Source: an uncultured Leptospirales bacterium (GTDB taxonomy: Bacteria; Spirochaetota; UBA4802; UBA5550). Taken from it: 64,000 nt of DNA. The notes beneath the pieces are model-generated. The model did not search any database. It was given only the letters and a program-made list of their open reading frames with translations, and was not told the origin of the DNA. Below are positions 11,653-51,614 of this stretch, in pieces. The stretch covers positions 194,341 to 258,340 of the forward strand of contig CAZGWD010000003.1 of assembly GCA_964529415.1 (NCBI GenBank), in the 5' to 3' direction. Numbering within the stretch: the stretch's first letter is position 1; each line of letters begins with the position of its first letter. The position numbers and the translations under genes are program-made.

Positions 11653-11832
11653 TTACCTGAACCCTGAAAATACAAAAATAAAAATAATAAATATAATAAT
11701 TATTGATAGAATGCCTAAAGAGATTAAAATATCTTTAAAATCCTGCAATTTCCAATCATAAAGTTTAAACCGTAAAAAAATTCCTATTATAGCTATAACA
11801 AGAAGTTCAAGATACCAGTATTCAAAAAACAT
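11653..11832 (-). CDS. Small two-TM membrane protein (59 aa), unannotated, last gene of the synthase operon
   Basis: Manual translation MFFEYWYLELLVIAIIGIFLRFKLYDWKLQDFKDILISLGILSIIIIFIIFIFVFSGFR; its ATG overlaps the carboxylase stop (TGATG); below the 60-aa cutoff of the ORF track. Confidence 0.6.
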   Translation of the reverse strand: MFFEYWYLELLVIAIIGIFLRFKLYDWKLQDFKDILISLGILSIIIIFIIFIFVFSGFR

Positions 11833-17609: not shown

Positions 17610-18343
17610 ATATAATAATCTTCCAGGCGGTTTATGAAAATTCTGCAGTTTTCATCCGGTACTGCAAGAACTGCCTTATAATTTTTTTCCGGAATTATTT
17701 CATGAAAATTCCAGTTCAAGTTCAAATCACTGCATTCTTTATCTGCAAGATTTAATTTTCCGCCATTATCGTGAATAAACTCAATACTTTTAATTGAATC
17801 AGTTATGCCTGTTCCTGCTGCTTTTAAATATGCTTCCTTATGAATCCAGTATCTGAAAAAAACATCAAGCATCTTTTCCTCTGGCGATACGATAAATTCA
17901 TTAAATTCTAAATCTGATAGTGTTGTTTTAGCGAGGTTATTGAGATTTTCAAGATTGCGGATATATTCAATATCAATTCCGATCTCTTTCCCAAGCGAAA
18001 ACGCATATATGGTAAAATTTCCGGAATGAGACAAGTTAAATTTCAAAGTGCTATTTGTATTTCCTGAAAAAAACGGTTTGCCGGCTTCAGTATATAAAAA
18101 TTCGATATCACCTGGCTGAACACCTGTATAAATTGAAACAAGTTCTCTCAATATGCCTCTTGAAATTATATACCGGTTTTTATCCTTTTCAAACTTATAA
18201 TCTATGGCTTTTTTTTTCTCATCATCTGATAATATCGATAAAAAATATTCCGCATGAGCCATAGCCTTTTCAAGATCTGCAATCCACACATGAATAATAT
18301 CGGATGATAAAACCGGCAGTGTTTTCAATGGTATTAAGATCAT
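17606..18343 (-). CDS. Sfp-type 4'-phosphopantetheinyl transferase
   Basis: LSDDEKKKA, GKP, FNLSHSG, IGIDIE, WIHKEAYLKAAGTG; stop overlaps the carboxylase start (ATGA). Start set at 18343 because the 18403 extension runs through a REP-like hairpin. Confidence 0.92.
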   Translation of the reverse strand: MILIPLKTLPVLSSDIIHVWIADLEKAMAHAEYFLSILSDDEKKKAIDYKFEKDKNRYIISRGILRELVSIYTGVQPGDIEFLYTEAGKPFFSGNTNSTLKFNLSHSGNFTIYAFSLGKEIGIDIEYIRNLENLNNLAKTTLSDLEFNEFIVSPEEKMLDVFFRYWIHKEAYLKAAGTGITDSIKSIEFIHDNGGKLNLADKECSDLNLNWNFHEIIPEKNYKAVLAVPDENCRIFINRLEDYYI

Positions 18344-18364
18344 ATCATCTAAATTCCACTGATA

Positions 18365-18648
18365 CCCCCTGTCCCCCGAAGGGGGCACGTGATAAATAAT
18401 CATTTCTATTAATCTGATTCATCCTCAATACTGACTAAAATTATTCCTTGGAATCGATCATGGTATTATAATTCATAGATTGATAAAAATCAATCGTATT
18501 CCCTTCTACTTGCCCCCTTTAGGGGACGTGGGAAAAATAATCTCATTAACATCTCTTTCCCAACATACTGGATTGAGCCAAATTTTTAAAAAATTTAAAT
18601 TCATTGTTTTACTTTTATTAAGCCCCCCTCTGGGGGGTTGGGGGGCTT
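18365..18648. repeat. Cluster of three C5-loop-G5 REP-like hairpins between the synthase and PPTase genes
   Basis: CCCCCTGTCCCCCGAAGGGGGC (18365-18386), GCCCCCTTTAGGGGAC (18512-18527), AAGCCCCCCTCTGGGGGGTTGGGGGCTTT (18620-18648); the first and last are in inverted orientation. Confidence 0.65.
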
Positions 18649-18697
18649 TATTACAAAACAAGGAATTCCTTAAATTATTATCTACCAGTAACCCCTA

Positions 18698-21600
18698 CTA
18701 AAAAAACTTCTGCAAGGTTGACATTAGAAGAACAAGCAGCCCTTCCCTGTCATCTCTCAGAAATATATGCCCGCCTTTCATTACATTCATCTTGAATTCT
18801 TTTGTTGAATGTTTATCCCATGCATTTACCTGATCAACAGTAAATACTGTATCCTTATCCCCTGCAAAAGCAATAAGCGGACAATCAAGAGGCTTGTCAG
18901 ACTTGGCATCATACCTGTATCTTTTACCCATGATTATATCTGCTTTGATGGATGGCAGCATTTCTTTCATGAGGTTTTTATTTGAAAGAACTTCCTCAGG
19001 AATTTCAAGGTTTCTCATATGCTGATAAATTCCTTTAGTGGTATCAGCATCATCGCTTCTGATATCTTCTTCCTTAAGATTCTCTATAATTTTAAACGGA
19101 CTCTTAAGATGAGGAGCTATCCAGCCTCCAGCAAAAAATACAGATGGAAGCTTGTTGTATTTATTCTTGATATGGTTCGCAAATTTAAATGCAATACCAG
19201 CTCCAATACTGTGCCCGTAGAATGAAAAAGGAATATCAAGTAAAGGCTCAATAGTCTCGCCCATGATTCGAATCAGATCTTCAACATCATCGATCGGATT
19301 CTCATCGCTTCTTTCCTCTCTGCCCGGATACTGAACCGCGCATACTTCAACCTCTGCAGGGAGAGTGTCCGCCCATGTAGAGAATGTTGATGCACCGCCT
19401 GCCATGTAAGGGAAGCAGAACAATCTGTGCTTGGCTTTAGGGTTAATTCCTCTTCTGACAAACCATTTATCAACATCAGATTTTGAATGGTGAGCATCAT
19501 CTGCACCGCTTCCGGCTTCAGCTGATAAATCTCCCATCTCATTCAATAATAAATTGGAAAGCTCATTTATGCTCGGTCCTCTCATGATTTTCATCATTGA
19601 GAATTCCACATCAAGATGCACGTGAATCCAGTTTCTCAGCTGATTTGCCATAAGAGAATCAAGTCCCATGTTGTTGATCGGTGTTTCAGGGTCAATCTTG
19701 GCTGCAGACGCTCCGAGAATCCTTGCTATAGTTTCCGTAACATGCTTCTTAAGTATCTCAATTTTCTTGGATGCTTCAGCTTCGGCAATAGCTTTTCTTA
19801 AACTGTCCCCGCCGCCTTTTTTCTTGTCATCAGATGAAACAAAAAGATGCGCGAATCTATGCGAGCTCTTGTCTTTAATATAATATTTGCCGAGTTCCTG
19901 CCAGTCAACTGCAAACGCAGACTTGTGAGGATGTCCCTGCATAACAATTCTGTTAATTGCATCCAGGCACTGTTCAGGAGTAAATGTTCTCCATCCCTGA
20001 CTTGATAGAATAGTTCCAACTTTTTCGCTTCTTGAAACAAATCCGACATTGGAAATAGCTCCCCAGCTGATTGTAGTAGCCTTGAAACCGTTTGCCTGCC
20101 TGTAATACGAGAACATATCAAGGAAAAGATTGGCTGCAGCATAGTTGCTCTGGGCAGGCGTGCCATACTCAGCTGCAATAGATGAGAATGATATGAAGAA
20201 ATCTACCAGCTCATTTGCTATATTATTGTGCAGATTCCATGCTCCCATCACTTTAGGTCGGATAGCAACCATGAATTTTTCATGTGTCATATCAGGTAAA
20301 ATCGCATCTTCAAGTACAAGTGCGCTGTTCACAACTCCGCGAACAGGAGGCATCTCTTTTTTAATTTTCTGGAAAAGATCGAACATCGCGGTCTTGTCAG
20401 CAGCATCGACCTTGGCTTCCATAGCGTGTACACCGCGTGTTTTTAAAGACTCAAGAAAAGCCTTAGCCTCATCAGTTTTAGCTCCGCTTCTTCCGATCAG
20501 AACAAGATTTTTAGCGCCTTTATCAGCAAGCCATCCAGCAACAGTCATTCCGAGTCCTGAGAGACCTCCTACTACAACATAGGTTCCGTCTTCTCTCATA
20601 ATGTCAGAAATATCCGGTGAAGGATTAACATAAAGCTCTTCGCCTTTTATCTTTATGACAACTTTTCCTGTGTGTCTTGCGCTTGCCATTTCCCTGAATG
20701 CATCAACTACATCAGCAATTTTAAAAGAAACAAATGGATGCGGTTCAGCAGATTCACCTCCGAAGAAAGTCATCATCTCTGTAATTACTCTTTCACAAAG
20801 AGCAGGCTTTTCATTCAGAAGTTTGTCTATATCAACTGCAGAATATGTCAGGTTGTTCCAGAAAGGACGCAGACTCAGTCTGCTGTTTTCATAAATATCA
20901 GTCTTTCCTATTTCAATAAATCTTCCGTATTTGCTCAGAATGCTCATGCTTTTATAAATAGCATCACCGGAAAGGGAGTTAAGAATAATATCAACACCCT
21001 CGCCGTTTGTATCGCGCATAATCTCTTCAGCAAACTTCAGGCTTCTTGAATCATAAACATGTTTTACACCGATTGATTTAAGAAACGCACGTTTCTCTTC
21101 GCTTCCTGCTGTTGCGAAAACTTCAGCGCCGATCTGCTGTGCAAGACGGACACCAGCAAGACCAACACCGCCGCTTCCTGCATGGATTAAAACTTTCTCG
21201 CCCTCTTCCATTCTTCCGGGATAAATCAGCGAGTAATAAGCTGTAATATAAGCAAACGGAAGTGTTGCAGCTTCTTCATGAGTCATATTTGAAGGTTTCT
21301 TATATGCATATCCGCTTTTTGTAATTGCAAAAGAGGCGAATGTATCAGCTGCTATTGCAACCACCTCATCTCCTATTTTCCATCCGTCAACACCAGCACC
21401 AAGAGCTGTTACAATACCGGAACATTCCATTCCGAAATGCTTTCCAGTGTAGCCGCCTTTTGGCGCATCCTCATGAAGCATTCCTGTTGCAATCATTACA
21501 TCTTTAAAGTTAAGAGCTGAAGCACAAACCTGTATTTCAATTTCGCCCTTGCCGGGAGTTTTCCTTGATGTTTCCTCAAGTCTCAGATTATCAAGAATTC

Positions 21601-24600
21601 CCTGATCGTGCATTATAAGATGGAAAGGAGTAACACCTGCAGTAATTTTCTTAAGAGATTTTTTCGCTTCCTCTTTAGGATCAACGTGAACATATTTATG
21701 CAGATATCTGGTCTTGCCCCTCAGAGCAACTTCCTCCATCTGATCATCAGCACATATCTCTTTTAAGAGAGAATCAAGCTCAACAGCAGGTGTTTCATGG
21801 CTGATATCAATCACAGTCGCGCCGAGATGCTGGTGCTCATGCATCATTGATCTTGCCATACCCCATACTCCGGCCTGTGAAGGTGATATATGCTTTAAAT
21901 CTCCGATATGGGTTGCGCCGGATGTTACTATCCATAAATGAGGAGCCTTTTCATCTGTATTTCTGAAAAGCTCGCGAAGCATATTAAGCACGCTTGAACA
22001 TCCAAGTGCATAAGCTTCTTCAAGATTTTCATTGGTTATCTGCTCTGTAGGAACATGATTCAGATTCCAAAGATGCACTATGCCTCTGAGATCTTTGGCT
22101 TCCTTAAGTTCCATTTTTTCAAAAATTTTAGCCATATCTGACTGGCTGTAAGGGCTTGCTGTAAAGACTCCATTGCCATTATCTGCAAAGCTCTCTCCAG
22201 GAAAAACTGATATAACCTTTTCCCCTCTGGAAGAAAGTTCTTTAACAAGATAATCTCCAGCGCCTTTCTTGTCATTAAATACAAGCCAGTTATGCGAACC
22301 GTTTGCTGATTCAGGAAGTTCCGCTTTCTGCTCAACAATTTCATAGTCCCTGTTCCTCGCCATAATAACAGTCTGGGCAGATACAGCACTTGCACCTGCA
22401 TCTGTTATGCCGTATACAGAATGATATCCTGTGGATTTGAGCATTTTTTCCCATTTATTAAAAGGCATTGTAGGATGATCAGGTCTGAGATCATAATCCT
22501 CAAACATCCACCATCCTTCTGTTAGACCGAATACAAGGTCAACCCACCATGGGCACTGTGAAACTTCGAGCATTATAAGAAGTCCGTTCGGAGCAAGAAG
22601 ATTCTGAACGTGTGTTAGAGTGCTTGCAATGTTCGGTGTAGCGTGAACAACATCGGATGCTATTACAAGGTCATATGAATTAGGTACAACGCCCTGCTCT
22701 TCAAGATCCTTGCTTATATCAAGAATTTTATACTGTATAAAAGGATAATCTGCAAATCTCTCTTCTGCTTTCATCATGAACATCGGAGAAAGGTCAGTGT
22801 AGAGATAATTTGTTCTGTCTGCAGGAAGAATAGGCAGAACAACATTTGTCATAGATCCTGTTCCAGCTCCAACCTCTGCAATTCTTAAAGTTTTATCAGC
22901 AGGAAGATTTTTCAGAAGTTCAGAAAGAGCTTCCCTTACCATCTCATTGTATTTTTTGAATGAATGGCTTTCCTGGTAGAATTTAACTGTATTTTCCCAC
23001 TCTTCATCAGGGAATAGAAGCTCAACAGGATCAACTTTACCTGTGAAAATATCAGCAAGGAAAGGTCCGCACTTGCCGAGCATGTTCAGTTCATGTATGA
23101 AAGCCGGATATTTTGCATAAAGATCATTGTAGAAAGTAATGCTGCTTATAGCTTCAGGTTTTTTAAGCACCTTCCAGCCTTTGGCAGTTTTTTCAAATGT
23201 ACCATATTCAGCAAGAAGATCAAGAGTACGCTTGACAAGCTTGGGCATATATCCCTTGATAATGCCGAATTCAGAAACAAATGAATCCATTGTGAATTCA
23301 TGACCAATTTCAAATTTAAAACCAAGATCATATAAGCACTTCTCTATATATCTGATTGTTAAAATATTAAGCTGAGGCTCAAATTCTGTATCATATAGAA
23401 TTTTCTCAGCGCCGAGCCTTTTTGATTCAATGTAATCTTTTATGAAGCCTGAAACAGATGCAGGTTCCGGAATATACTCACCCGGCTTTCTTGACTTGAT
23501 CTGGTCAGCTCTTTCTGCAACATTCCACTGATATTCATAAATATGATTGTCGATATTTTTATCGTCTTCGCCTCTTGTTCCCTCGATGTATCTGCATCTG
23601 AAACCGTCAATATCAAGGCAAAGCTCGCCGTTTTCATCATATATTCTAAGCTCGCCTGTAACAAACATGCCTGCAATTTCTTTTAGTCTTCCATATGAAT
23701 AAAGCTTGAGTGTAGGCTTTTTATAGAATCTGATTTTGTCGATATGAACAGGAACCATAACTCCGAGCTTCTCACCCTCTGGAACTGGAACGCTTCCGAA
23801 AAGTGCCTGAAAACAAGCATCAAGAATTGCCGGATGGAAATTAAACTGCTCAATTCCATGCACAATTGACTCAGGAACATGAAGCTCTCCAAGAGCCTCA
23901 CCAAGATATTTCTCGCCTTTAGCGCTATGTCTCCAGCATTTTGTTACTGATCTGAATGTCGGTCCGAGCAGAAGTCCGTCTTTGTACAGTTCATCGTACA
24001 TCGGCTCAAAGTCTACAGGCTCAGTGCATCTTGCCTTGATATAATCAAGTGAAACTTTCTCAAGCTCGAATTCCTCATCAAGGTGACGAAGCTTTCCATA
24101 GATGTGTCTTGTCCATGAATCCTTTTCGCTCTTCCTGCTGAAAATTCCGAATGAGCCGTCTGAAGCTGAAAGATTAAACTGAATTTCTGGAGGATTTCCA
24201 TCGTCCGGAAGATACACAGCCTTTTTAAAATTTATGTCTTCTATAAATCTGAACTTATCCCCGAAAGCCTGCATACCGCAAGTCAGGGCAAGCTCGCATG
24301 ATCCTGCTCCAGGGAAGATGATCGGTCCCTGAACCTTATGGTCTTCTATATATGGATACAATCTTTTATCGAGCTGAATGTCGAACAGGTGATCGTTGCT
24401 GTTTACAGCATTATCTCTGTGAATTCTCACATGTGGGTGAATTCTCTTGCCGAACCTGTTTTCTTTAGATTCAACAGATTCAAGCCACAGGCTTTCTTTT
24501 GCAAATGAGTATAATGGAAGGTCAATAAATTTTCCTTCACCAGCAACCTTCACTGTATCAAGAGCATAACCTGTTGTATAGATCTGTCCGATACCGGAAG

Positions 24601-27160
24601 TAAGCATAAGTTTTTCATTATCTTTTCTTCTCAGAGATGGAACTATTGCGCCTTTTTTGCTGAGCTCTTCAAATGTATCGCTTATGCTTGCAGAAAGAAT
24701 CGGATGCGGAGCAATTTCAACGAAAATTGAATAACCGTCTCTCATCATTTCCTTAACTGCATGATAAAAAAGAACTGTTTCCCTGATATTTCTATACCAT
24801 AGATCAGCATTAAGAGTTTTGCCGTCAATCTGCTTTCCTGTAACTGCGGAATACAGAGGAGTTGATTCCTTGGAAGTCTTGACTTTTCCAACTGATTTCA
24901 GGAATTCATCCTTTATAACATCAAGGTAATGGCTGTGGAAAGGAACATCCACTTTAAGAAATCTGTTGAATACGTCTTTTTTCTCAAGATCAGCTGCAAT
25001 TTTCTCAAGAGATTCTGTATCGCCTGAGAGAGTCAGCATTTTCGGACCGTTTATAACTGCAACGCAGACAAGGCCGTTATAAGGTTCAACAACCTTCTGT
25101 GCTTCAGCCTGTTTTAAAGCTACAGCAAGCATTTTGCCTTTTCCTGCAGCAACAGACTGGCTCTTGCTTCTCCAGTAAATAAGCCTTGTTGCTTCGCTCA
25201 GATCGATAGACCCGGATGCGTAAGCTGCAGCAACTTCACCAATACTGTGGCCTACAATACCGTCAGGATTAACTCCCATTGATTTCCACATTTCAGTCAA
25301 TCCAACCTGAACTGCAAAAATTAGAGGCTGTGCGATTTCAGTTTCATTTACCCTTGAGGTTTTTTCATCTTTCAGAAATTCTTTTATTAAAGAGCTGTTC
25401 TCTTTTTTCAGCCAGCCGAGTTCTTTCAGAATTGCATCAATATCTTCTATAACTTTTTTGAATACAGGCTCTGATTCATAAAGCTCCCTGCCCATTCCCC
25501 ACCACTGAGGCCCCTGTCCTGAATATACAAAAGCAAGTTTAGGTTTTGCATCAGGTCCGAAAGTTACACGGGATGAAGCCAACCCCTGACGCGCCTCGCC
25601 ATTTACAAAAGCTGTAAGTTTTTCAATCAGATCCTCTTTGGTTGAAGCAGCAATTGCAAGTCTGTGGTCATGGTGCGTTCTTCTTGTAAGTGCAGTGTAG
25701 CAGATGTCCTGTAGAGATTCTTTTGTTTCTGAAACAAATTTAATATATTTATTTGCATTATCTTTCAATGACTGCGCGCTTTTAGCTGAAAGAACAAGAA
25801 GATGCATTCCCTTATCTGCCTTTTTAGCTGCTTTTTCAGCTTTCTTTTCATAGCCTTTAAGAACGATATGCGCATTAGCTCCGCCGAATCCGAAAGAGTT
25901 AATACCTGTGTACATATCATTTTTATCTTTTATTGCAGGCCAGTCAATCAGATCAACCGGAACTTCTATATTGTATTCTTTGAATTTTATTTTAGGATTA
26001 GGATTTTTGAAGTGAAGGTTTTTAGGAATTTTTTTGTATTTCATTGCCATAAGAAGTTTTATAAGTCCAGCCATACCTGAAGCAGGCTCTAGGTGCCCAA
26101 CATTTGTTTTAACTGTACCTACAACAACTTTTTCGCCTTTCTTCTTTTTAGATCCGATAACTTCTCCAATGGAAGTACATTCTATCGGGTCTCCAACTGC
26201 AGTTCCTGTACCATGAGCTTCTATATACTGTACAAGGGAAGGATCAATTCCTGCTCTGCTGTAAGCATCATTCATAACATCAATCTGGGCTTCCTGACGG
26301 GGCATGTGAAGTCCGTCTGAAGCGCCATCCTGGTTTGTTGCGCTGCTTAATATCAGGCCATAAATTTTATCTCCATCTCTTTCTGCAGCAGAAAGAGGCT
26401 TGAGAACAGCAACTCCGATTCCTTCGCTTCTAATATAACCGTTTGCAGACTCATCAAATGCTTTAGATCTTCCATCAGGTGACAGAAATCCGCCCTTGCT
26501 GAAACTCATTGCAGTTTCAGGCCTGATAATCATGTTTACTCCGCCTGCAAGAGCCATTTCGCATTCGTCATTCCAGATGCTGCGTGTTGCATTGTGCAAT
26601 GCTATAAGTGAAGAAGAACAGGCTGTATCAACTGTGTAGCTTGGTCCCCTGAAATCATAAACATATGAAATCCTGTTTGTAACAATCGAGTTTGAACCAC
26701 CGCCTACAGTATTTCCTGTTATAGTAACATGTTCAGCAGGGGAAAGCCAGCCTAAAGAGCCGTAATCAGTTGCAGAAACGCCCATGAATACACCGACATT
26801 TTTTCCCTTGATTTTATTAAGATCAAGTCCTGCATCTTCCAGCGCTTCGTAGCTAACTTCAAGAGCAAGTCTCTGCTGAGGATCCATTCGAATTGCCTCT
26901 TTTGGAGCAATACTGAAAAACTGAGCATCAAATTTATCTATATCATTAATAAACCCGCCCCATTTTACACTGATTTTTCCAGGCATATTATAATCAGGGT
27001 GATAATATTTCTCATTATCCCATCTATCAGCAGGAATTTCTGTGATTGCATCAACTCCCGGAGCTAAAACCTTGTCCCAGAATTCTTCAGGGGAATTAGC
27101 ATTACCAGGCATTTTACATCCAAGACCGATTATGGCTATTGGTTCATTCTTTTTTGGCAT
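18698..27160 (-). CDS. Single-module (probably iterative) highly reducing type I PKS/FAS: KS-AT-DH-cMT-ER-KR-ACP-TE
   Basis: KS DTACSSS/HGTGT/NVGHLE; AT GQGPQW, GHSIG, VPFHSH; DH HKVQGPIIFP, DACFQ; MT EVGAGTG, YTDLS, VVHATP; ER LNFKD, IHAGSGGVG; KR GGLSGLG, VLED, YAAAN; ACP GLDSL; TE FPYMAGG, GHSIG, GGHIFL. Confidence 0.95.
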   Translation of the reverse strand: MPKKNEPIAIIGLGCKMPGNANSPEEFWDKVLAPGVDAITEIPADRWDNEKYYHPDYNMPGKISVKWGGFINDIDKFDAQFFSIAPKEAIRMDPQQRLALEVSYEALEDAGLDLNKIKGKNVGVFMGVSATDYGSLGWLSPAEHVTITGNTVGGGSNSIVTNRISYVYDFRGPSYTVDTACSSSLIALHNATRSIWNDECEMALAGGVNMIIRPETAMSFSKGGFLSPDGRSKAFDESANGYIRSEGIGVAVLKPLSAAERDGDKIYGLILSSATNQDGASDGLHMPRQEAQIDVMNDAYSRAGIDPSLVQYIEAHGTGTAVGDPIECTSIGEVIGSKKKKGEKVVVGTVKTNVGHLEPASGMAGLIKLLMAMKYKKIPKNLHFKNPNPKIKFKEYNIEVPVDLIDWPAIKDKNDMYTGINSFGFGGANAHIVLKGYEKKAEKAAKKADKGMHLLVLSAKSAQSLKDNANKYIKFVSETKESLQDICYTALTRRTHHDHRLAIAASTKEDLIEKLTAFVNGEARQGLASSRVTFGPDAKPKLAFVYSGQGPQWWGMGRELYESEPVFKKVIEDIDAILKELGWLKKENSSLIKEFLKDEKTSRVNETEIAQPLIFAVQVGLTEMWKSMGVNPDGIVGHSIGEVAAAYASGSIDLSEATRLIYWRSKSQSVAAGKGKMLAVALKQAEAQKVVEPYNGLVCVAVINGPKMLTLSGDTESLEKIAADLEKKDVFNRFLKVDVPFHSHYLDVIKDEFLKSVGKVKTSKESTPLYSAVTGKQIDGKTLNADLWYRNIRETVLFYHAVKEMMRDGYSIFVEIAPHPILSASISDTFEELSKKGAIVPSLRRKDNEKLMLTSGIGQIYTTGYALDTVKVAGEGKFIDLPLYSFAKESLWLESVESKENRFGKRIHPHVRIHRDNAVNSNDHLFDIQLDKRLYPYIEDHKVQGPIIFPGAGSCELALTCGMQAFGDKFRFIEDINFKKAVYLPDDGNPPEIQFNLSASDGSFGIFSRKSEKDSWTRHIYGKLRHLDEEFELEKVSLDYIKARCTEPVDFEPMYDELYKDGLLLGPTFRSVTKCWRHSAKGEKYLGEALGELHVPESIVHGIEQFNFHPAILDACFQALFGSVPVPEGEKLGVMVPVHIDKIRFYKKPTLKLYSYGRLKEIAGMFVTGELRIYDENGELCLDIDGFRCRYIEGTRGEDDKNIDNHIYEYQWNVAERADQIKSRKPGEYIPEPASVSGFIKDYIESKRLGAEKILYDTEFEPQLNILTIRYIEKCLYDLGFKFEIGHEFTMDSFVSEFGIIKGYMPKLVKRTLDLLAEYGTFEKTAKGWKVLKKPEAISSITFYNDLYAKYPAFIHELNMLGKCGPFLADIFTGKVDPVELLFPDEEWENTVKFYQESHSFKKYNEMVREALSELLKNLPADKTLRIAEVGAGTGSMTNVVLPILPADRTNYLYTDLSPMFMMKAEERFADYPFIQYKILDISKDLEEQGVVPNSYDLVIASDVVHATPNIASTLTHVQNLLAPNGLLIMLEVSQCPWWVDLVFGLTEGWWMFEDYDLRPDHPTMPFNKWEKMLKSTGYHSVYGITDAGASAVSAQTVIMARNRDYEIVEQKAELPESANGSHNWLVFNDKKGAGDYLVKELSSRGEKVISVFPGESFADNGNGVFTASPYSQSDMAKIFEKMELKEAKDLRGIVHLWNLNHVPTEQITNENLEEAYALGCSSVLNMLRELFRNTDEKAPHLWIVTSGATHIGDLKHISPSQAGVWGMARSMMHEHQHLGATVIDISHETPAVELDSLLKEICADDQMEEVALRGKTRYLHKYVHVDPKEEAKKSLKKITAGVTPFHLIMHDQGILDNLRLEETSRKTPGKGEIEIQVCASALNFKDVMIATGMLHEDAPKGGYTGKHFGMECSGIVTALGAGVDGWKIGDEVVAIAADTFASFAITKSGYAYKKPSNMTHEEAATLPFAYITAYYSLIYPGRMEEGEKVLIHAGSGGVGLAGVRLAQQIGAEVFATAGSEEKRAFLKSIGVKHVYDSRSLKFAEEIMRDTNGEGVDIILNSLSGDAIYKSMSILSKYGRFIEIGKTDIYENSRLSLRPFWNNLTYSAVDIDKLLNEKPALCERVITEMMTFFGGESAEPHPFVSFKIADVVDAFREMASARHTGKVVIKIKGEELYVNPSPDISDIMREDGTYVVVGGLSGLGMTVAGWLADKGAKNLVLIGRSGAKTDEAKAFLESLKTRGVHAMEAKVDAADKTAMFDLFQKIKKEMPPVRGVVNSALVLEDAILPDMTHEKFMVAIRPKVMGAWNLHNNIANELVDFFISFSSIAAEYGTPAQSNYAAANLFLDMFSYYRQANGFKATTISWGAISNVGFVSRSEKVGTILSSQGWRTFTPEQCLDAINRIVMQGHPHKSAFAVDWQELGKYYIKDKSSHRFAHLFVSSDDKKKGGGDSLRKAIAEAEASKKIEILKKHVTETIARILGASAAKIDPETPINNMGLDSLMANQLRNWIHVHLDVEFSMMKIMRGPSINELSNLLLNEMGDLSAEAGSGADDAHHSKSDVDKWFVRRGINPKAKHRLFCFPYMAGGASTFSTWADTLPAEVEVCAVQYPGREERSDENPIDDVEDLIRIMGETIEPLLDIPFSFYGHSIGAGIAFKFANHIKNKYNKLPSVFFAGGWIAPHLKSPFKIIENLKEEDIRSDDADTTKGIYQHMRNLEIPEEVLSNKNLMKEMLPSIKADIIMGKRYRYDAKSDKPLDCPLIAFAGDKDTVFTVDQVNAWDKHSTKEFKMNVMKGGHIFLRDDREGLLVLLMSTLQKFF

Positions 27161-27483: not shown

Positions 27484-27945
27484 ATGGCAGCTAAAGAATT
27501 CGCAGAATACAAATACGGCACTACAACCAATTATTCAAAGGGTATACTGAATTTTATTGCAGTCTCCATGGCTATAGGAATAATCTTTACTGCAATTAAT
27601 ATAAATCCTTATGCTTTAGCATTAATTTTAATACCAATAATTATTATTATTTTAAACAAACGCTCAGCATCCGTAAATTTAATTTTAATTGGGGGCAGAT
27701 ACCTGATCATTGGCACAAATGTGGTTTATTATAAAAACATTGAAAAGACTGAGCTTGATAAAAAAATTGGAAAATTCACATTAACCACAACTGAAGGAAA
27801 TACTTATAATATCAACTCTGCCTCTTTTCCAACCAATGCAAGAAAGCCTGATAAAATTAAAATAAATAAAACAGCCAAGTTCGAAAAGGCAGTTGATAAA
27901 ATAATTGCACGGCTTAAAGAAATAGCTCCGGGCAGCATTAAATAG
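27484..27945 (+). CDS. Hypothetical membrane protein (two TMs plus basic C-terminal beta domain)
   Basis: GAGG RBS, two adjacent hydrophobic helices; no recognisable catalytic motif. Confidence 0.75.
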   Translation: MAAKEFAEYKYGTTTNYSKGILNFIAVSMAIGIIFTAININPYALALILIPIIIIILNKRSASVNLILIGGRYLIIGTNVVYYKNIEKTELDKKIGKFTLTTTEGNTYNINSASFPTNARKPDKIKINKTAKFEKAVDKIIARLKEIAPGSIK

Positions 27946-27993
27946 AAAGTAATTTCTTATGAACGCCAAAACAATCAACCTATTCGGTAAAAA

Positions 27994-29847
27994 ATGAATC
28001 GGGCTGAAACATTACAGATCAAGCCGGATATCACAGGACATATTCATCTGCTCTATGTGCCGACTCTGCACTGCAATCTGAGCTGCAGGTACTGCTACCT
28101 CGGAGATCAAACTGACTCCGCCTCTCTACGGATTGATTCAGAAAGGGCAGAGCATACGCTACAGCACGCACTTGGTTCTTTTCTCAATGAAGGTATTCTT
28201 CCATTTAATGTATCTTTGCATGGAGGCGAAGTTACTACACTGCCTGCACCGGTTCTTGAATCGCTATTCCACATCATCCGCAGTCATTATACTTATTACT
28301 ACGACGAGCTGACATCGCTTGGATACAGAAAATCTGATCCTCATGTAAAAACCAATCTTTTTAATTTTCACAAGCTCTATGATTTATTTGACCGCAATAA
28401 AGTTTCTATCAGCGCGAGTGTTGATTTACCTCTGTCCCTTCACGGAAAATACCGCACAGACCGCCGAGGACAAGGATGGCTTGAAGGAACACTCAATAAT
28501 ATCCGCCTGCTTGGCAAATATCCCCACAGCAAAAAAATGTCATCAACCCTGTACATAGAACATCTTGAAAACATCTCTCAAATTATAAATGATATCTGGA
28601 AGATACATAATGAACTGGGTTTTGATATGAATAATTTCAATTTCATGTTCGGTTTTGAATCTTCGTTAAATAATCTTAAATATGATAATTCTTCTGATAA
28701 AATTCTACAGGCAAAGGAAGATCAGCAGCTTCAGTTTTATGAGGCAATGAAAGAGGCATTTACAGGAACTGAACTTGAATACGGACTGAAACGGAACTGG
28801 TTTGATGAATTCAAACCTGAATACTGCACGAATTCGCTCAACTGCGGCGAAAAATTTTTTCTCCTTCAGGGAGACGGGTCAATCTACTCATGCGTTCGGG
28901 GACAGGGACTTCCGCAGTTTTTTTATGGAAACATTTTCAATGATTCAGTGAAAGATATACTTCATGCAGCCCGCAGCAGAGTAAACCTTGCTCACCAGAA
29001 TCAGGGCCTTGATCCTGAATGCAGACAGTGCAGCTATATCGGAATCTGCAGAACAGGCTGCCCTATAGTAAAAATGCAGAATAAAAGAAACAGATCATAC
29101 ACATGCTCATTGCAGAAAGCTATTTACAGGGATAATCCAATCAGTTACCCGCCTCTTTTAAAATCAGAAGAACAGAATTATGCTCTCAGGGAATATATTG
29201 CAGAAATGCACCCGAATCTTATATATGAATTACAAAACGAGGAACTCCCCCAAAGTGTCAGTACTGCATTATTCCCGGCTGAAATTCAGGATGAAAAAAA
29301 CTCTCTTGCAATGATTATCAGCAGGGACAGAATCCTTGAATCACTCTACAGCGATAGCGCTTTTTTCATTTCAGTAAATGGAGAACAGATACCTCTTCAA
29401 TCGCAGATACTTAAAAGGGATCGTTCCTTATATACAATAGGTCCTGGTGATAAAATAAATCTGTTTATCCGCAAATCCATATTTGAAATAAACTGCGACG
29501 AAATTATCCGCAACACTCTGTATATTCAAATACTTAGAGATACACCTGTAGTTTACGGTGATGAAAAGCGTACAAAACAGGAGCACATCCTAACTCACCA
29601 GATTTATTACAATCTTTTAAAGCCGGGCAATCTTCCGGATAAAGATTTTTTAATGGCTGATATTACAGGCTTATTTTCATTGTATAGAGATGATTTTATA
29701 AAAAACATCCTGAACAATATATTTGTAACCACTTATTATCTGAGAGAATATCATTACCAGAAACAGAAGGCGAATGCGTTTTATCATATACAGGCATTGA
29801 ATCTGCCGTTCCAGAATTTTGAATTCTACTGGGACGAGAATAAATAA
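27994..29847 (+). CDS. Radical SAM/SPASM-domain enzyme with long C-terminal extension
   Basis: CNLSCRYC (CxxxCxxC), HGGE, SISASVD; SPASM-type cysteines CTNSLNC...YSC...CRQCSYIGICRTGCP...C; ~230 aa remain after SPASM. Confidence 0.9.
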   Translation: MNRAETLQIKPDITGHIHLLYVPTLHCNLSCRYCYLGDQTDSASLRIDSERAEHTLQHALGSFLNEGILPFNVSLHGGEVTTLPAPVLESLFHIIRSHYTYYYDELTSLGYRKSDPHVKTNLFNFHKLYDLFDRNKVSISASVDLPLSLHGKYRTDRRGQGWLEGTLNNIRLLGKYPHSKKMSSTLYIEHLENISQIINDIWKIHNELGFDMNNFNFMFGFESSLNNLKYDNSSDKILQAKEDQQLQFYEAMKEAFTGTELEYGLKRNWFDEFKPEYCTNSLNCGEKFFLLQGDGSIYSCVRGQGLPQFFYGNIFNDSVKDILHAARSRVNLAHQNQGLDPECRQCSYIGICRTGCPIVKMQNKRNRSYTCSLQKAIYRDNPISYPPLLKSEEQNYALREYIAEMHPNLIYELQNEELPQSVSTALFPAEIQDEKNSLAMIISRDRILESLYSDSAFFISVNGEQIPLQSQILKRDRSLYTIGPGDKINLFIRKSIFEINCDEIIRNTLYIQILRDTPVVYGDEKRTKQEHILTHQIYYNLLKPGNLPDKDFLMADITGLFSLYRDDFIKNILNNIFVTTYYLREYHYQKQKANAFYHIQALNLPFQNFEFYWDENK

Positions 29848-29861
29848 AAGGATGTAATATT

Positions 29862-30326
29862 ATGCAAAAAGGAAATCCAAAAGAAATAGCTGCCAATGTT
29901 GAAAGGTTCCTCGATCTGCTTGGCCTTCACGACGACAAAAACAGGACGTCCATTGAACAGGATATTGTAAATAACCTTGTTGAACTGCACAGTAAAAAGC
30001 CTTTTGTTGTTTATTCGCACAAGAGCATTTTTCTATACAGCGGCGACAAGGTTATAAAAGAATATAATGCGGATGTTTCCCCATATGAAAATGTTGTTCA
30101 TTGTAATGATAAAAAAATATCCATGCTCGACAAGGAATCTTTTCTGCAGAATCACCATGTGCATATTGCCGGCGCTGTAACTGCAGCAGCTCTCATTGCA
30201 GCTGGTGCTTCAGCACGGGGTGATGATGCCAATCATGATAAGGTTAAAGACAAATCACGCGTGAGATCGAGCAACAACAATAACAATAATAATAACAACA
30301 ATAATAATAACAATAACAACGGCTGA
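29862..30326 (+). CDS. 154-aa protein with Ala-rich segment and C-terminal poly-Asn tail (candidate rSAM substrate/precursor)
   Basis: AAGGA RBS, starts 14 nt after the rSAM stop; ends ...AGAVTAAALIAAGASARGDDANHDKVKDKSRVRSS-N16-G. Confidence 0.75.
   Translation: MQKGNPKEIAANVERFLDLLGLHDDKNRTSIEQDIVNNLVELHSKKPFVVYSHKSIFLYSGDKVIKEYNADVSPYENVVHCNDKKISMLDKESFLQNHHVHIAGAVTAAALIAAGASARGDDANHDKVKDKSRVRSSNNNNNNNNNNNNNNNNG
30273..30320 (+). repeat. 16 consecutive Asn codons (8 AAC + 8 AAT, interspersed)
   Basis: AAC AAC AAT AAC AAT AAT AAT AAC AAC AAT AAT AAT AAC AAT AAC AAC, then GGC TGA. Confidence 0.97.
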
Positions 30327-51100: not shown

Positions 51101-51415
51101 CGCCCAGTAGATGTCAGTGCCGTCATTGAAAATTACATACACATACGAAAATCCGAAATCACTGTACCCGCGTATCGCCTTGACCTTCGGAGCTCCGAGC
51201 AGCGATGAAATTATCGGATATGTGACCTGATCCTCTATTATGTCCGGGCTTCTGTCCCATTTTGTATATATGATTACCTGCGTATCAGACAGATCAGGAA
51301 TTGCATCGAGAGGAATATTATACATTGCAAAAAGTCCGTAAGCAACCGCAGCAAATGTGAGCAGAATCACCAGCAGTTTGTTGTGCGCGGAGAATGATAT
51401 TATTTTTCTTATCAT
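48176..51415 (-). CDS. cusA: CusA/SilA heavy-metal RND efflux permease
   Basis: PLDAIPDLSDTQVI, GSEFMPPLNEG, TDPAPFSMMET, RIRPKIMT, MKRIAAPMVGG. Confidence 0.93.
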   Translation of the reverse strand: MIRKIISFSAHNKLLVILLTFAAVAYGLFAMYNIPLDAIPDLSDTQVIIYTKWDRSPDIIEDQVTYPIISSLLGAPKVKAIRGYSDFGFSYVYVIFNDGTDIYWARSRVIEYLSKIQGSLPAGVKTEMGPDASGVGWVYQYALIDKNGKHNLASLRSFQDWNLKYALQSVPGVSEVAGIGGYEKQYQVIIDPNKLQSYKLSVMDITDAIKKNNNETGGRLIEWSGREYMVRAKGYVKSTGDLGKIVVKENEGTPVFLENVATITLGPQIRRGLAEYNGQGDVVGGIVVMRHGENALNVIKRVKEKIEDLKSSLPEGVEIKAVYDRSELINKSIDNLKEDLFIEMIIVSIVILFFLWHFPSALVPIMTIPISVALAFIPMYFFGISSNIMSLAGIAISIGVLVDGAIVEVENAYKKIEHWIEDGRKGDFHSVRLEALMEVGPSVFFSLLVIAVAFLPVFTLVDQEGRLFTPLAWTKTLTIALAALLAVTLDPAIRMLFSRVDPFKIKPLWLSRILNTAFVGTYYQEERHPVSRVLFRLYEGPCRRVLDNPRKVISGAVIIVLLTIPVYMKLGSEFMPPLNEGTVLYMPTTLPGISVTEARNLLLVQDRVLASFPEVQSVFGKAGRADTSTDPAPFSMMETTITLKPQAQWRDKKRWYSSWAPAPLKWLFRHVWPDKISYDELIALMDEKLQIPGNSNAWTMPIKGRIDMLTTGVRTPVGIKIFGSDLEEIQRVGGEIETILKDVKGTRSVFSERVSGGYYVDITPRRETLARYGFSIDDFQSVVMSAIGGDTVSTTIEGRERYSISVRYPRDLRVEVDQLERVLVTTRKGVQVPLRELASIKLANGPAMIRDENGKLAGYVYVDIADRDVGSYVEDAKKIVKNHIKLPVGYNLVWSGQYENMERVRERLKIVLPLTILLIFVLLFMNTKSAFKAGVVMLAVPFSAVGAVWLLYILGYNTSIAVWVGMIALMGLDAETGVFMLLFLDLSYDDAKKKGMLNNMFELKEAIIHGAVKRIRPKIMTVMAASMGLMPIMWSMGTGADVMKRIAAPMVGGLFTSFIMELLVYPAIYLLWKKRELKL

Positions 51416-51459
51416 GAGATACTTACTCTAATTAATTGAAAATTTATATTGATAGGATA

Positions 51460-51601
51460 AGTGTAAGAACAGGGGATAAGGTTATAGAAGAGATTAGGGA
51501 TATTTTTATTTTTCATATAGTTATAATATCATGTATCTCTTTTTTTATATCTTTTATCCCCATTATCTCATCCATCTCCTAAATCCCCTCATTCTTACAC
51601 A
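51460..51601 (-). repeat. ~140-bp non-coding inverted-repeat element, copy 2 (cusB-cusA intergenic)
   Basis: Ends GTGTAAGAA...TTCTTACAC; the reverse complement shares AGGGGATTT, GGAGATGGA, GAGATA, TACATGATATT, ATCTCTT and TCTTACAC, in order, with 8354-8491. Confidence 0.75.
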
Positions 51602-51614
51602 TATTTTATTTAAA

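What the first reader, a model, noticed from the sequence alone, without database searches (positions are those of the whole stretch)
27484..30326. Radical SAM/SPASM enzyme coupled to a poly-asparagine-tailed protein: candidate new RiPP or protein-modification system
Seen: a tight plus-strand trio of a 2-TM protein, an rSAM/SPASM enzyme and, 14 nt later, a 154-aa protein. The last has a ~100-aa globular N-terminus, an Ala-rich helix (AGAVTAAALIAAGASA), a charged linker and a terminal Asn16-Gly. No sulfatase or cofactor genes are nearby. Known: SPASM enzymes typically modify adjacent peptides (epimerisation, cross-links), and long-leader precursors with Asn-rich cores exist (proteusins). Inference: the N16 tract is the core and is iteratively modified; I know no described class with a homopolymeric Asn core. 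Against: no protease or ABC exporter in the locus.
Basis: partly seen in the sequence, partly recalled or inferred. Interest (0 to 1): 0.85.

Follow-up and report, generated by a model that had tools for sequence, protein, structure and literature searches.

The report
Radical SAM enzyme with poly-asparagine-tailed partner
A three-gene cassette (small membrane protein, radical SAM enzyme, and a small protein ending in a run of asparagines plus one glycine) recurs almost unchanged in bacteria of several phyla and looks like an undescribed protein-modification system, with a distant cousin beside phage tail-fibre genes.

Summary
The + strand carries a 153-aa protein with two hydrophobic segments (27484-27945), a 617-aa radical SAM/SPASM enzyme (27994-29847) and, 14 nt later, a 154-aa protein ending in Asn16-Gly (29862-30326).

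The search found 133 relatives of the enzyme and kept the best 80 loci. Of these, 75 hold a complete ORF ending in Asn(6-27)-Gly-stop. The other five genomes carry the gene too, cut by a contig end, on another contig or unlinked. The membrane protein is upstream in 74 of the 80 loci. No other neighbour is conserved, and the PKS next door appears in 0 of 80.

The tail is the most constrained part of the partner, kept even in relatives of low sequence similarity. Its AAC/AAT codons are interleaved against genomic GC bias.

None of the three proteins reaches a curated family cut-off other than the generic SPASM domain. Eight literature searches found nothing on this pairing.

A 34%-identical, full-length homologue (phrog_1802) sits in Campylobacter prophage tail modules. 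There the tail-fibre protein two genes upstream also ends in a short Asn run.

Best reading: a new radical SAM system acting on C-terminal Asn tails. The chemistry is untested.

The parts
27484..27945 (+). Gene 1: 153-aa membrane protein with two hydrophobic segments and a basic C-terminal domain carrying the conserved motif FPTNARK...KI..NK.AKF.K
   Evidence: ORF. Hydropathy peaks. A homologue lies upstream on the same strand in 74 of the 80 loci, 75 of 81 with the window. Invariant residues in a 28-sequence alignment: Y11 R72 Y73 G77 Y82 A119 R120 K124 F133. No Pfam, PDB or NCBIfam match. All 74 database relatives that carry a name are called 'hypothetical protein'.
27994..29847 (+). Gene 2: 617-aa radical SAM/SPASM enzyme with an extra conserved C-terminal domain
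   Evidence: Family scans. AlphaFold2 mean pLDDT 84.6. Residues 15-385 match anSME 4k36_A (VIA Z 27.7, rmsd 3.6, 333 aligned; Foldseek 4k37_A E 7.8e-14). 161 positions are at least 97% identical over 81 sequences.
28072..28095 (+). Codons for the CX3CX2C radical SAM cluster motif (C27, C31, C34)
   Evidence: Each Cys is conserved in 99% of 81 sequences. The motif aligns with the anSME motif.
28825..29106 (+). SPASM region with eight Cys (C278, C284, C300, C343, C346, C352, C356, C371) for two auxiliary 4Fe-4S clusters
   Evidence: Each Cys is 100% conserved in 81 sequences. They align with the anSME Cys in the HMMER alignment.
29302..29844 (+). C-terminal beta-rich domain (aa 437-617) with motifs VYGDE.R.KQEH and LREYHYQKQK.NAFYHIQA.NLPFQNFEF. 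Probable partner- or tail-binding site, or a second active site (inferred).
   Evidence: Secondary structure and pLDDT. Residues 501-617 are as conserved as the catalytic core (38% and 29% of positions at least 97% identical). The motifs are kept in the 34%-identical phage homologue. No Pfam match. The fold was not tested on its own.
29862..30155 (+). Gene 3, N-terminal domain of the partner (aa 1-98): two helices, five strands, one helix
   Evidence: Model. No convincing fold match (Foldseek best E 0.97; VIA best Z 4.6, rmsd 2.9, 70 aligned). Nearly invariant residues: A10 V13 E14 F16 D24 R28 E32 V36 K85 S87 D90.
30159..30215 (+). Hydrophobic Ala/Gly-rich segment of the partner (aa 100-118)
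   Evidence: KD 1.68. A comparable segment occurs in 65 of 76 partners and is missing in 11, so it is optional. pLDDT is below 50.
30273..30323 (+). Asn16 tract (30273-30320) plus the terminal Gly codon (30321-30323). The stop codon is at 30324-30326. Proposed substrate of the enzyme.
   Evidence: Sequence. Tail statistics (6-27 Asn, median 14, preceded by Ser in 66 of 76). Codon interleaving. Only such site in the genome.

Best explanation
The three genes form a self-contained operon-like cassette for a radical SAM-dependent modification of a protein's C-terminal asparagine tail.

Shown:
- The cassette is conserved as a unit: membrane protein, then an rSAM/SPASM enzyme with a family-specific C-terminal domain, then a carrier protein of about 145 aa ending in Ser-Asn(n)-Gly.
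- It lies in unrelated genomic surroundings in bacteria labelled as seven phyla.
- The Asn run plus terminal Gly is the most conserved feature of the carrier.
- The enzyme keeps all 11 cluster-binding Cys of an anSME-type SPASM enzyme.

Inferred mechanism:
1. The folded N-terminal domain of the carrier docks on the enzyme, probably on its conserved C-terminal domain.
2. The disordered Asn tail enters the active site from its free C-terminus.
3. The 5'-deoxyadenosyl radical abstracts hydrogen from Asn residues. C-beta is the most likely site, because the nearest characterised sequence relatives (DynA, GrrM/OscB, XyeB) act there.
4. The two auxiliary clusters take up the electron.
5. The same step repeats along the homopolymer. 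This would explain why tract length is free (6-27) while tract composition is not.
6. The product stays on the protein, since no protease or exporter is conserved. The 2-TM protein probably holds the complex or the product at the membrane.

The kind of modification (cross-link, desaturation, hydroxylation or epimerisation) is not known.
For: 1. Linkage.
- 133 relatives of the enzyme were confirmed among 152 matched stretches in the genome-contig collection (185,579 species by the tool's description). The best 80 were kept.
- 75 of the 80 loci hold a complete same-strand ORF ending in Asn-run-Gly-stop.
- In the 69 loci where a start could be assigned, the gap from the enzyme's stop codon is -20 to +198 nt, median 10. 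It is a 4-nt overlap in 18 of 70 counting the window.
- In the five other genomes the gene is cut by the contig end (L033, L044), continues on another contig (L078 to L098), is unlinked (L026 to L100) or lies on a small contig (L095 to L102).
- The congener genome keeps the trio with Asn17-Gly.

2. Self-contained cassette. All-against-all clustering of ORFs within 5 kb gave only three clusters shared by most loci. The next real cluster is present in 7 loci.

3. The tail is the constrained part.
- A profile of the N-domain alone, run against 1.84 billion representatives, gave 60 hits at E <= 1e-3.
- Of the 41 hits fetched, 28 end in an Asn run plus Gly. These include the weakest hits (E 8e-6 to 6e-4: P0171, P0172, P0175, P0180, P0181).

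4. Selection on the codons.
- The tract mixes AAC and AAT, with a median longest same-codon run of 3.
- In 15 loci with GC >= 0.64 the tract is 30% AAT against 10% in the enzyme gene (Fisher p 1.3e-8).
- In 8 loci with GC <= 0.40 it is 53% against 75% (p 1.3e-5).
- Related genomes are not independent, so these p values overstate.

5. Enzyme competence. CX3CX2C and the eight SPASM Cys are 99-100% conserved and align with anSME. The fold match to anSME has Z 27.7.

6. Precedent for Asn C-beta chemistry. The best NCBIfam hits are DynA, GrrM/OscB and anSME. Passages of review PMC11002830 state that OscB and XncB link aromatic rings to C-beta of Asn, and that dynobactin has a Trp-Asn C-beta bond.

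7. An independent branch.
- A full-length homologue (34% identity, E 4e-110; phrog_1802, E 7.9e-46) lies in Campylobacter prophage tail modules.
- The tail-fibre protein two genes upstream ends in ...STNNNNY...GNNF...GNNS or ...SCNNNNN in 13 of 13 loci examined.
- Many of these loci are near-identical. About five lineages are represented.

8. Co-fold of enzyme and partner: weak support only.
- Score 0.50 (runs 0.50, 0.00, 0.54). Best of 3 controls 0.00.
- The mark was reached by 58 of 80 solved complexes and 2 of 110 mismatched pairs. At 0.60 or under it was reached by only 7 of those 80 and by both mismatches.
- The runs agree in at least 29% of contacts. Partner pLDDT is at least 58.
Against: - No experiment or computation here shows any modification. 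The link between enzyme and tail rests on conserved co-occurrence.
- The co-fold passed only weakly, and one of three runs scored 0.00.
- The tail has no aromatic or thiol acceptor, so the chemistry of the nearest characterised relatives (cyclophane or thioether formation) cannot apply as such.
- All curated maturase models score far below cut-off (best 82 bits against 450).
- In the anSME alignment the residue after the third SPASM Cys is Asp in anSME and an invariant Val here. I recall that Asp as the proposed catalytic base, but no call confirmed this role.
- The strictly conserved terminal Gly in the cellular branch could mean that the last residue is the target, rather than the Asn residues.
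- The role of the membrane protein is a guess.
- 13 of the 41 fetched N-domain relatives lack the Asn-Gly end. Most look truncated, but their contexts could not be checked.
- The single MAG records labelled Deinococcus and Fibrobacterota may be mis-binned, so the count of seven phyla may be too high.
Confidence: 0.58

Rival explanations
1. The enzyme acts only on the extreme C-terminus. Examples are oxidative removal or decarboxylation of the terminal Gly, giving a C-terminal amide or similar, as MftC acts on the terminal Tyr of MftA. In this reading the Asn run is a hydrophilic spacer that lets the end reach the active site from the docked N-domain.
For: The terminal Gly is invariant in the 76 cellular tails examined. 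The Methylococcales variant N15-G-N-N-G also ends in Gly. Tract length varies freely from 6 to 27. That MftC is a SPASM enzyme acting on a C-terminal residue is recalled, not tested here.
Against: A spacer need not be a pure homopolymer, yet only 2 tracts seen hold an interruption (K in L031, S in L072). The codon pattern also argues for selection on every Asn. In the phage branch the last residue varies (Y, F, S, N) while the Asn run is kept.
Confidence: 0.2
2. The tail is a scaffold for a small molecule, in the manner of PQQ, mycofactocin or the pearlins. The Asn residues are converted and then released by unlinked housekeeping peptidases, so each tail yields many copies.
For: Many identical residues per precursor would suit multi-copy production. 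SPASM enzymes make PQQ and mycofactocin from peptide precursors (recalled; PqqE is among the fold matches at Z 17.3).
Against: No peptidase, amidase or transporter is conserved within 5 kb in 80 loci. The operon layout with overlapping stop and start codons suggests stoichiometric partners. The phage relative is tied to a structural protein.
Confidence: 0.1
3. The enzyme modifies something else (the partner's N-domain, another protein or a small molecule). The Asn tail would have a non-substrate role such as self-association (polar zipper), a degradation signal or sensing of Asn-tRNA supply.
For: No direct evidence ties the tail to the active site. The co-fold gave no reportable interface. Poly-Asn tracts aggregate in eukaryotic proteins, by search listings and abstracts only.
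Against: The only features shared by the cellular partners and the unrelated phage tail fibres are adjacency to this enzyme family and a C-terminal Asn run. The tract lies at the 3' end of the last gene, which is the wrong place for an attenuator. N-domain residues are far less conserved than the tail.
Confidence: 0.12
4. The enzyme is a tailoring enzyme of the adjacent polyketide cluster, and the partner is incidental.
For: A highly reducing type I PKS, a PPTase and a fused acetyl-CoA carboxylase lie divergently upstream, 324 nt away. The same order is kept in the congener.
Against: tblastn with the PKS found no match at E <= 1e-5 in any of the 80 loci that hold the cassette. The cassette keeps its own three genes in all surroundings.
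Confidence: 0.02

Closest known systems
Anaerobic sulfatase-maturating enzyme (anSME, PDB 4k36/4k37)
   Same: It is the best structural and sequence match of the catalytic part (Z 27.7, 333 residues aligned; HMM E 1.2e-10). It has the same CX3CX2C motif and the same eight-Cys SPASM layout. It acts on a protein substrate without an RRE domain (recalled).
   Different: TIGR03942 scores 73.5 bits against a cut-off of 349. No sulfatase was seen among the scanned neighbours. The partner has no Cys/Ser-x-Pro-x-Arg motif. The residue after the third SPASM Cys is Val, not Asp. This enzyme has an extra C-terminal region of about 230 aa (conserved domain aa 437-617) that anSME lacks.
Cyclophane- and cross-link-forming SPASM maturases (DynA, GrrM/OscB, XyeB/XncB, YhhB, FxsB)
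   Same: They are the top NCBIfam hits (DynA 82 bits, GrrM/OscB 74.6 bits). Several of them abstract hydrogen at C-beta of Asn (passages of PMC11002830).
   Different: All scores are far below the cut-offs of 310-450 bits. Their substrates are short peptides with an aromatic residue two or three positions from the target. The Asn-Gly tail has no aromatic residue. Those peptides are usually cleaved and exported, and no such genes are conserved here.
Proteusins (polytheonamide type: NHLP/Nif11 long leader, Asn-rich core, PoyD epimerase)
   Same: A long protein-like N-terminal part is followed by a C-terminal Asn-rich stretch, and a radical SAM enzyme acts many times on one substrate (recalled).
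   Different: The partner hits no NHLP or Nif11 model at E <= 0.1. As I recall, PoyD-type epimerases are not SPASM enzymes. A proteusin core is a mixed sequence, not a homopolymer.
Mycofactocin and PQQ systems (MftA/MftC, PqqA/PqqE)
   Same: A SPASM enzyme acts at or near the C-terminus of a small gene product encoded next to it. PqqE is among the fold matches (Z 17.3).
   Different: No PqqD/MftB-like RRE protein, peptidase or further tailoring genes are present. No Mft or Pqq model is among the 25 NCBIfam families shown of 37 matched. The substrate here is a 150-aa protein with a homopolymer tail.
phrog_1802 radical SAM proteins of Campylobacter Mu-like prophages and phage CAM-P21
   Same: Homologous over the full length including the C-terminal domain (34% identity, E 4e-110; phrog_1802 E 7.9e-46). 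Each is encoded close to a protein whose C-terminus is an Asn run preceded by Ser.
   Different: The linked protein is a tail fibre (phrog_1162) with only 2-5 Asn, ending in Tyr, Phe, Ser or Asn rather than Gly. A 211-aa protein of unknown function and a tail assembly chaperone take the place of the membrane protein. That 211-aa protein shows no similarity to gene 1 or gene 3. The records annotate the function as hypothetical.

Membership tests
Radical SAM superfamily | CX3CX2C motif binding the SAM-cleaving 4Fe-4S cluster, in a partial TIM barrel | tested here: met
   C27/C31/C34 are conserved in 99% of 81 sequences. The fold matches anSME, CteB, ChlB and SuiB at Z 22-28. Pfam Radical_SAM scores only 15.4 bits against a cut-off of 29.5.
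SPASM subfamily | C-terminal seven- or eight-Cys motif for two auxiliary 4Fe-4S clusters | tested here: met
   Pfam SPASM 21.9 bits against 21.5. TIGR04085 46.9 bits against 27. Eight Cys are 100% conserved and align with those of anSME.
Anaerobic sulfatase maturase (TIGR03942 / PRK13758) | Score above the equivalog cut-off, and a sulfatase substrate with a Cys/Ser-x-Pro/Ala-x-Arg motif | tested here: not met
   73.5 bits against 349.45, and 48.7 bits against 441. No sulfatase among the 22 window ORFs scanned. The conserved neighbour is the Asn-tail protein.
Triceptide / three-residue cyclophane maturases (GrrM/OscB, XyeB, YhhB, FxsB, AmcB) | Equivalog score, and a precursor with repeated aromatic-x-x motifs | tested here: not met
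   36-75 bits against cut-offs of 310-450. The tail has no aromatic residue.
Dynobactin and darobactin maturases (DynA, DarE, DarW) | Equivalog score, and a short precursor holding Trp | tested here: not met
   DynA 82 bits against 450. DarE 43.3 bits against 650. There is no Trp in the tail.
Proteusin | NHLP or Nif11 leader domain on the precursor | tested here: not met
   The partner matches no family in Pfam or NCBIfam at E <= 0.1.
Proteusin | PoyD-type epimerase that introduces D-residues | not testable with these tools
   Epimerisation needs MS with D2O labelling or chiral analysis.
Mycofactocin / PQQ type cofactor systems | PqqD/MftB RRE partner and a maturase scoring as MftC or PqqE | tested here: not met
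   No such model is among the 25 NCBIfam families shown of 37 matched. No RRE-like gene is conserved in the 80 loci.
RiPP (general definition) | The leader is removed by a protease to release a modified core peptide | tested here: inconclusive
   No protease or exporter is conserved within 5 kb. An unlinked protease cannot be excluded.
phrog_1802 (phage radical SAM domain-containing protein) | Full-length match to the PHROG profile | tested here: met
   E 7.9e-46, 158 bits, residues 21-615 on profile positions 48-553 of 556. PHROGs has no curated cut-off, and the family has no known function.
Anti-phage defence systems (PADLOC) | Match to a defence-system model | tested here: not met
   The only hit is a pVip hit at E 0.0066 over the cluster motif. 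Genes 1 and 3 have none.

The most novel reading that the evidence does not exclude
A family of radical SAM/SPASM enzymes, marked by a conserved C-terminal domain, carries out a so far unknown post-translational modification of C-terminal oligo- or poly-asparagine tails. In bacteria labelled as seven phyla the substrate is a dedicated carrier protein with a genetically encoded Asn homopolymer that is modified residue by residue. In Campylobacter prophages the substrate is the tip of the tail fibre. This would be the first homopolymeric substrate of a peptide-modifying radical SAM enzyme and the first radical SAM modification of a phage receptor-binding protein.
Probability: 0.45. Interest if true: 0.9.

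Novelty: new variant of a known kind. Interest (0 to 1): 0.82.

Why it matters
Radical SAM/SPASM enzymes paired with a neighbouring substrate gene have repeatedly led to new peptide chemistry and new natural-product classes. Three features set this pair apart.

- The substrate is a folded small protein with a pure asparagine homopolymer. Its composition is fixed, its length is free, and it ends in one glycine.
- The pairing is close to obligate. All 80 genomes examined have both genes.
- A distant branch of the same enzyme family is wired to phage tail fibres that also end in asparagines. This hints at a general rule, 'this enzyme family acts on C-terminal Asn tails', and at an unrecognised way of finishing a phage receptor-binding protein.

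The system is small (three genes, one enzyme) and occurs in cultured bacteria: Trichlorobacter, Formivibrio, Archangium and Chitinilyticum by the record titles. It can therefore be tested directly by co-expression and mass spectrometry.

Tried and rejected
Known-family searches that found nothing
- Partner and membrane protein: no hit in Pfam or NCBIfam, in PDB sequence profiles (best E 0.14 for the partner, none for gene 1), in PADLOC or in PHROGs.
- ESM Atlas: no usable hit for the partner N-domain or the enzyme C-domain.
- Partner fold: Foldseek best E 0.97. VIA-wide best Z 4.6, rmsd 2.9, 70 aligned (RsbW), within the range the tool calls common. This is not a demonstrated new fold.
- Enzyme C-terminal domain fold: not tested.

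Ideas checked and dropped
- Enzyme-partner fusions: long ORFs in L042 and L063 looked like fusions. They are other-frame ORFs of high-GC DNA.
- The word-index search with the whole partner found only one relative. This reflects the method, since the profile search found 60.
- The 211-aa phage protein is unrelated to gene 1 or gene 3 by hhalign (E 0.21 and 0.31).
- K+ channel genes lie downstream in the window and in L045, but they are only 25% identical over the generic channel part. This is not counted as synteny.
- The promoter and terminator scan was uninformative.

Expression: no RNA holder is listed. Four DNA runs of one study hold the stretch, three of them possibly its source.

Viral collection: the first scan with the cellular alignment found no relative. 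Scans with the Campylobacter protein and with a mixed alignment found the same lineage only.

Literature: eight full-text searches found no paper linking poly-asparagine to radical SAM enzymes, or radical SAM enzymes to tail-fibre modification. Subscription journals are largely outside that library, and supplements are closed, so prior description cannot be excluded. For PMC11002830 and PMC2853527 I read only passages found by term. The second concerns other radical SAM genes of virulent Campylobacter phages and does not bear on this family.

Full report
**What is in the window.**
One search confirms three tightly spaced + strand ORFs:
- 27484-27945: 153 aa.
- 27994-29847: 617 aa.
- 29862-30326: 154 aa, ending RVRSS-N16-G.

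The spacers are 48 and 14 nt. The first protein has two hydrophobic peaks.

The second protein is a radical SAM/SPASM enzyme:
- Pfam SPASM scores 21.9 bits (cut-off 21.5) and TIGR04085 scores 46.9 bits (cut-off 27).
- It has a CX3CX2C motif and eight further Cys. Each of these Cys is 99-100% conserved over 81 sequences, and they align with the cluster ligands of anSME.
- The AlphaFold2 model (pLDDT 84.6) matches anSME over residues 15-385 (Z 27.7, rmsd 3.6, 333 aligned; Foldseek E 7.8e-14).
- A beta-rich domain follows (437-617) that no Pfam model covers.
- No curated maturase family is reached. The best is DynA at 82 bits against a cut-off of 450.

The third protein has a confidently modelled N-terminal domain (residues 1-98) and a low-confidence rest. 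It has no family or fold match.

The Asn tract uses 8 AAC and 8 AAT codons in short alternating runs. It is the only site of its kind in the 4.19-Mb genome.

**Is the pairing real?**
- The congener genome keeps all three genes. Its enzyme is 85% identical and its tail is Asn17-Gly.
- The enzyme belongs to a large, well conserved family: 1,585 database hits at E <= 1e-5, and the best 120 are 54-93% identical over 91-100% of the query.
- A scan of one genome per species confirmed 133 relatives and returned the best 80 loci.
- In 75 of the 80 loci a complete same-strand ORF ends in Asn(6-27)-Gly-stop. This includes a Methylococcales variant N15/16-G-N-N-G.
- Where a start could be assigned (69 loci), the gene begins -20 to +198 nt from the enzyme's stop codon. 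The median is 10 nt, and it is a 4-nt overlap in 18 of 70 counting the window.
- In two Bacteroidota loci (L087, L094) a shorter version lies 0.8 and 1.4 kb downstream.

The five remaining loci were followed up:

| Locus | Outcome |
|---|---|
| L033 | The contig ends inside the tract |
| L044 | The tract is followed by other residues up to the contig end |
| L078 | The gene continues on another contig (L098) |
| L026 | The genome has an unlinked copy ending in N15-G (L100) |
| L095 | The genome has a 130-aa ORF ending in SS-N12-G on a small contig (L102) |

All 80 genomes therefore hold such a gene.

**What else is conserved nearby.**
All-against-all clustering of ORFs within 5 kb found the upstream membrane protein in 74 of the 80 loci, 75 of 81 with the window. 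It was not found in L023, L065, L071, L087, L094 and L095. L071 has almost no upstream sequence, and the others were not examined further.

Nothing else is shared beyond 7 loci. Clusters 3-8 are out-of-frame shadows of the enzyme gene.

The PKS that lies divergently upstream in the window is kept in the congener. It is absent from all 80 loci. The unit is therefore three genes and nothing more.

**Which part of the partner matters.**
- The N-domain is only 18-41% identical between the window and the partners of the 69 genome-contig loci in the alignment.
- A profile of that domain alone, run over 1.84 billion representative proteins, gave 60 hits at E <= 1e-3. I fetched 41 of them.
- 28 of the 41 end in an Asn run plus Gly, including the weakest hits.
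- The other 13 are mostly short or oddly ended sequences whose contexts I could not inspect. One of them (P0177) has an internal run followed by a sortase-like signal.
- The tract is preceded by Ser in 66 of 76 tails. It has 6-27 Asn with a median of 14.
- The hydrophobic segment between domain and tail is present in 65 of 76 partners and is therefore optional.

The codon pattern points the same way:
- The tract is pulled towards a 30-53% AAT mix whatever the genome's bias.
- High-GC loci: 30% AAT in the tract against 10% in the enzyme gene (p 1.3e-8).
- Low-GC loci: 53% against 75% (p 1.3e-5).
- The median longest same-codon run is 3.
- This fits selection for a stable, translatable Asn homopolymer. 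Related genomes are not independent, so the p values overstate.

**The enzyme's second conserved region.**
Residues 501-617 are as conserved as the catalytic core. 37 positions there are at least 97% identical, most of them polar: E503, R506, N507, Y521, D523, E524, R526, K528, H531, R584, H587, Y588, K590, Y597, H598 and others. I read this region as the docking or tail-binding site, or as a second active site. This is inference, because its fold was not searched on its own.

**Do the two proteins bind?**
The co-fold gave weak support only:
- Score 0.50 (runs 0.50, 0.00, 0.54). Best of three controls 0.00.
- The mark was reached by 58 of 80 solved complexes and 2 of 110 mismatches. At 0.60 or under it was reached by only 7 of those 80 and by both mismatches.
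- The runs agree in at least 29% of contacts. Partner pLDDT is at least 58.
- No interface was reported.

**An unexpected relative.**
- tblastn against plasmids and phages found one hit each. These are a Campylobacter coli plasmid record and Campylobacter phage CAM-P21.
- The homology runs end to end (34% identity, E 4e-110) and includes the C-terminal motifs.
- The window enzyme matches phrog_1802 over its full length (E 7.9e-46).

In these two records and in 11 IMG/VR contigs the gene order is:
1. Tail fibre (phrog_1162).
2. A 211-aa protein of unknown function.
3. The radical SAM enzyme.
4. A DUF1353 tail assembly chaperone (phrog_1158).
5. A second fibre-like protein.
6. The tail sheath.

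The fibre protein ends in ...STNNNNY...ATNNNNY...SSNNNNY...STGNNF...SSGNNF...SMGNNS or ...SCNNNNN in 13 of 13 loci. The preceding 30 residues differ between lineages. Many of these loci are near-identical and about five lineages are represented, so I rate this as suggestive.

The fibre and the cellular partner are otherwise unrelated. What they share is the neighbouring enzyme family and a Ser-preceded C-terminal Asn run. This favours the Asn run over the last residue as the recognised element.

**How it most likely works.**
Shown:
- A conserved three-gene unit.
- A tail under strong selection.
- An enzyme with every cluster ligand of a two-auxiliary-cluster SPASM enzyme.

Inferred:
- The partner's N-domain docks on the enzyme and the disordered tail enters the active site.
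- The 5'-deoxyadenosyl radical abstracts hydrogen from Asn.
- C-beta is the best guess for the site, because the closest characterised relatives by sequence do this. OscB and XncB link aromatic carbons to C-beta of Asn, and dynobactin holds a Trp-Asn C-beta bond (passages of PMC11002830; NCBIfam ranking).
- With no aromatic or thiol acceptor in the tail, the outcome must differ. Candidates are Asn-Asn cross-links, desaturation, hydroxylation, or epimerisation if C-alpha is attacked.
- A reaction repeated along the chain would explain why composition is fixed and length is free.
- No protease or exporter is conserved, so the product probably stays on the protein. The membrane protein may hold it at the membrane.

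I put about 0.58 on 'the Asn tail is the enzyme's substrate' and much less on any one chemistry. The rivals are listed separately: action on the terminal residue only, a small-molecule scaffold, a non-substrate role of the tail, and PKS tailoring.

**Comparison with what is known.**
- The enzyme works like, and is built like, an anSME-type SPASM enzyme that takes a protein substrate. It fails the membership tests of anSME and of every named maturase family.
- The partner is not an NHLP/Nif11 proteusin precursor.
- The public records that carry a name call the enzyme 'radical SAM protein', 'SPASM domain-containing protein' or 'uncharacterized protein', and the membrane protein 'hypothetical protein'.
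- Eight literature searches found nothing on this pairing. The library's limits are stated under Tried and rejected.
- I file it as a new variant of a known kind: a radical SAM/SPASM maturase with an adjacent substrate gene. Its substrate type has no described precedent that I could find.

**Verdict.**
The chemistry remains open.

The finding is of high interest for three reasons. The pairing is nearly obligate across distant bacteria. The substrate is a genetically encoded homopolymer. A phage tail-fibre branch points to a wider rule. The system is small enough to test at once.

Noticed in passing
window 11832-27160 (- strand): A polyketide cluster lies divergent from the cassette. It has a 2820-aa type I PKS (KS-AT-DH-MT-ER-KR-ACP-TE, 18698-27160), a PPTase (17606-18403) and a 1925-aa single-chain acetyl-CoA carboxylase with biotin carboxylase, BCCP and carboxyltransferase domains (11832-17609). 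The same three genes lie upstream of the cassette in the congener (L103). They are absent from the 80 other cassette loci.
   Followed up: partly
L104 2307-7123; L125; L105-L114; L122: Campylobacter Mu-like prophages and phage CAM-P21 carry a full-length homologue of the enzyme (phrog_1802) inside the tail-fibre module. The tail-fibre protein two genes upstream ends in a short Asn run (STNNNNY, GNNF, GNNS, SCNNNNN) in 13 of 13 loci.
   Followed up: partly
protein P0177: A 244-aa distant relative of the partner has an internal Asn9 run. After it come a Ser/Gly/Asn-rich stretch, VPKTGD, a hydrophobic segment and KKKRENNR. This looks like a sortase cell-wall sorting signal, yet no N-terminal signal peptide is evident. 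Its genomic context could not be seen.
   Followed up: no
L026 2861-4979; L045 1854-2837; L100: In two Desulfuromonadales-labelled MAG loci, one or two extra genes are inserted between the membrane-protein gene and the enzyme gene. In L026's genome the partner gene has moved to another locus. The cassette can therefore be split.
   Followed up: partly
L076 3647-4183; L033 and L044 contig ends: Assemblies often break or hold gaps inside the Asn-codon tract: a run of N bases in L076, and contigs that end in the tract in L033 and L044. Database copies of the partner are therefore often truncated. This probably explains why some N-domain hits lack the tail.
   Followed up: no
window 48176-54226 (- strand) and 61643-63571 (- strand): A CusCBA-like heavy-metal RND efflux operon is present (AcrB-family pump, HlyD/CusB with a heavy-metal-binding domain, outer-membrane factor). 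There is also a tungsten-type aldehyde:ferredoxin oxidoreductase. The latter fits an anaerobic lifestyle.
   Followed up: no
L002 743-1051 (congener, upstream of gene 1): The roughly 930-nt spacer between the PKS and the cassette in the congener holds a short ORF whose translation (…FPRRRESI…IPVFTGMT…) resembles the spurious products of a dispersed repeat element. That resemblance is recalled and was not tested.
   Followed up: no
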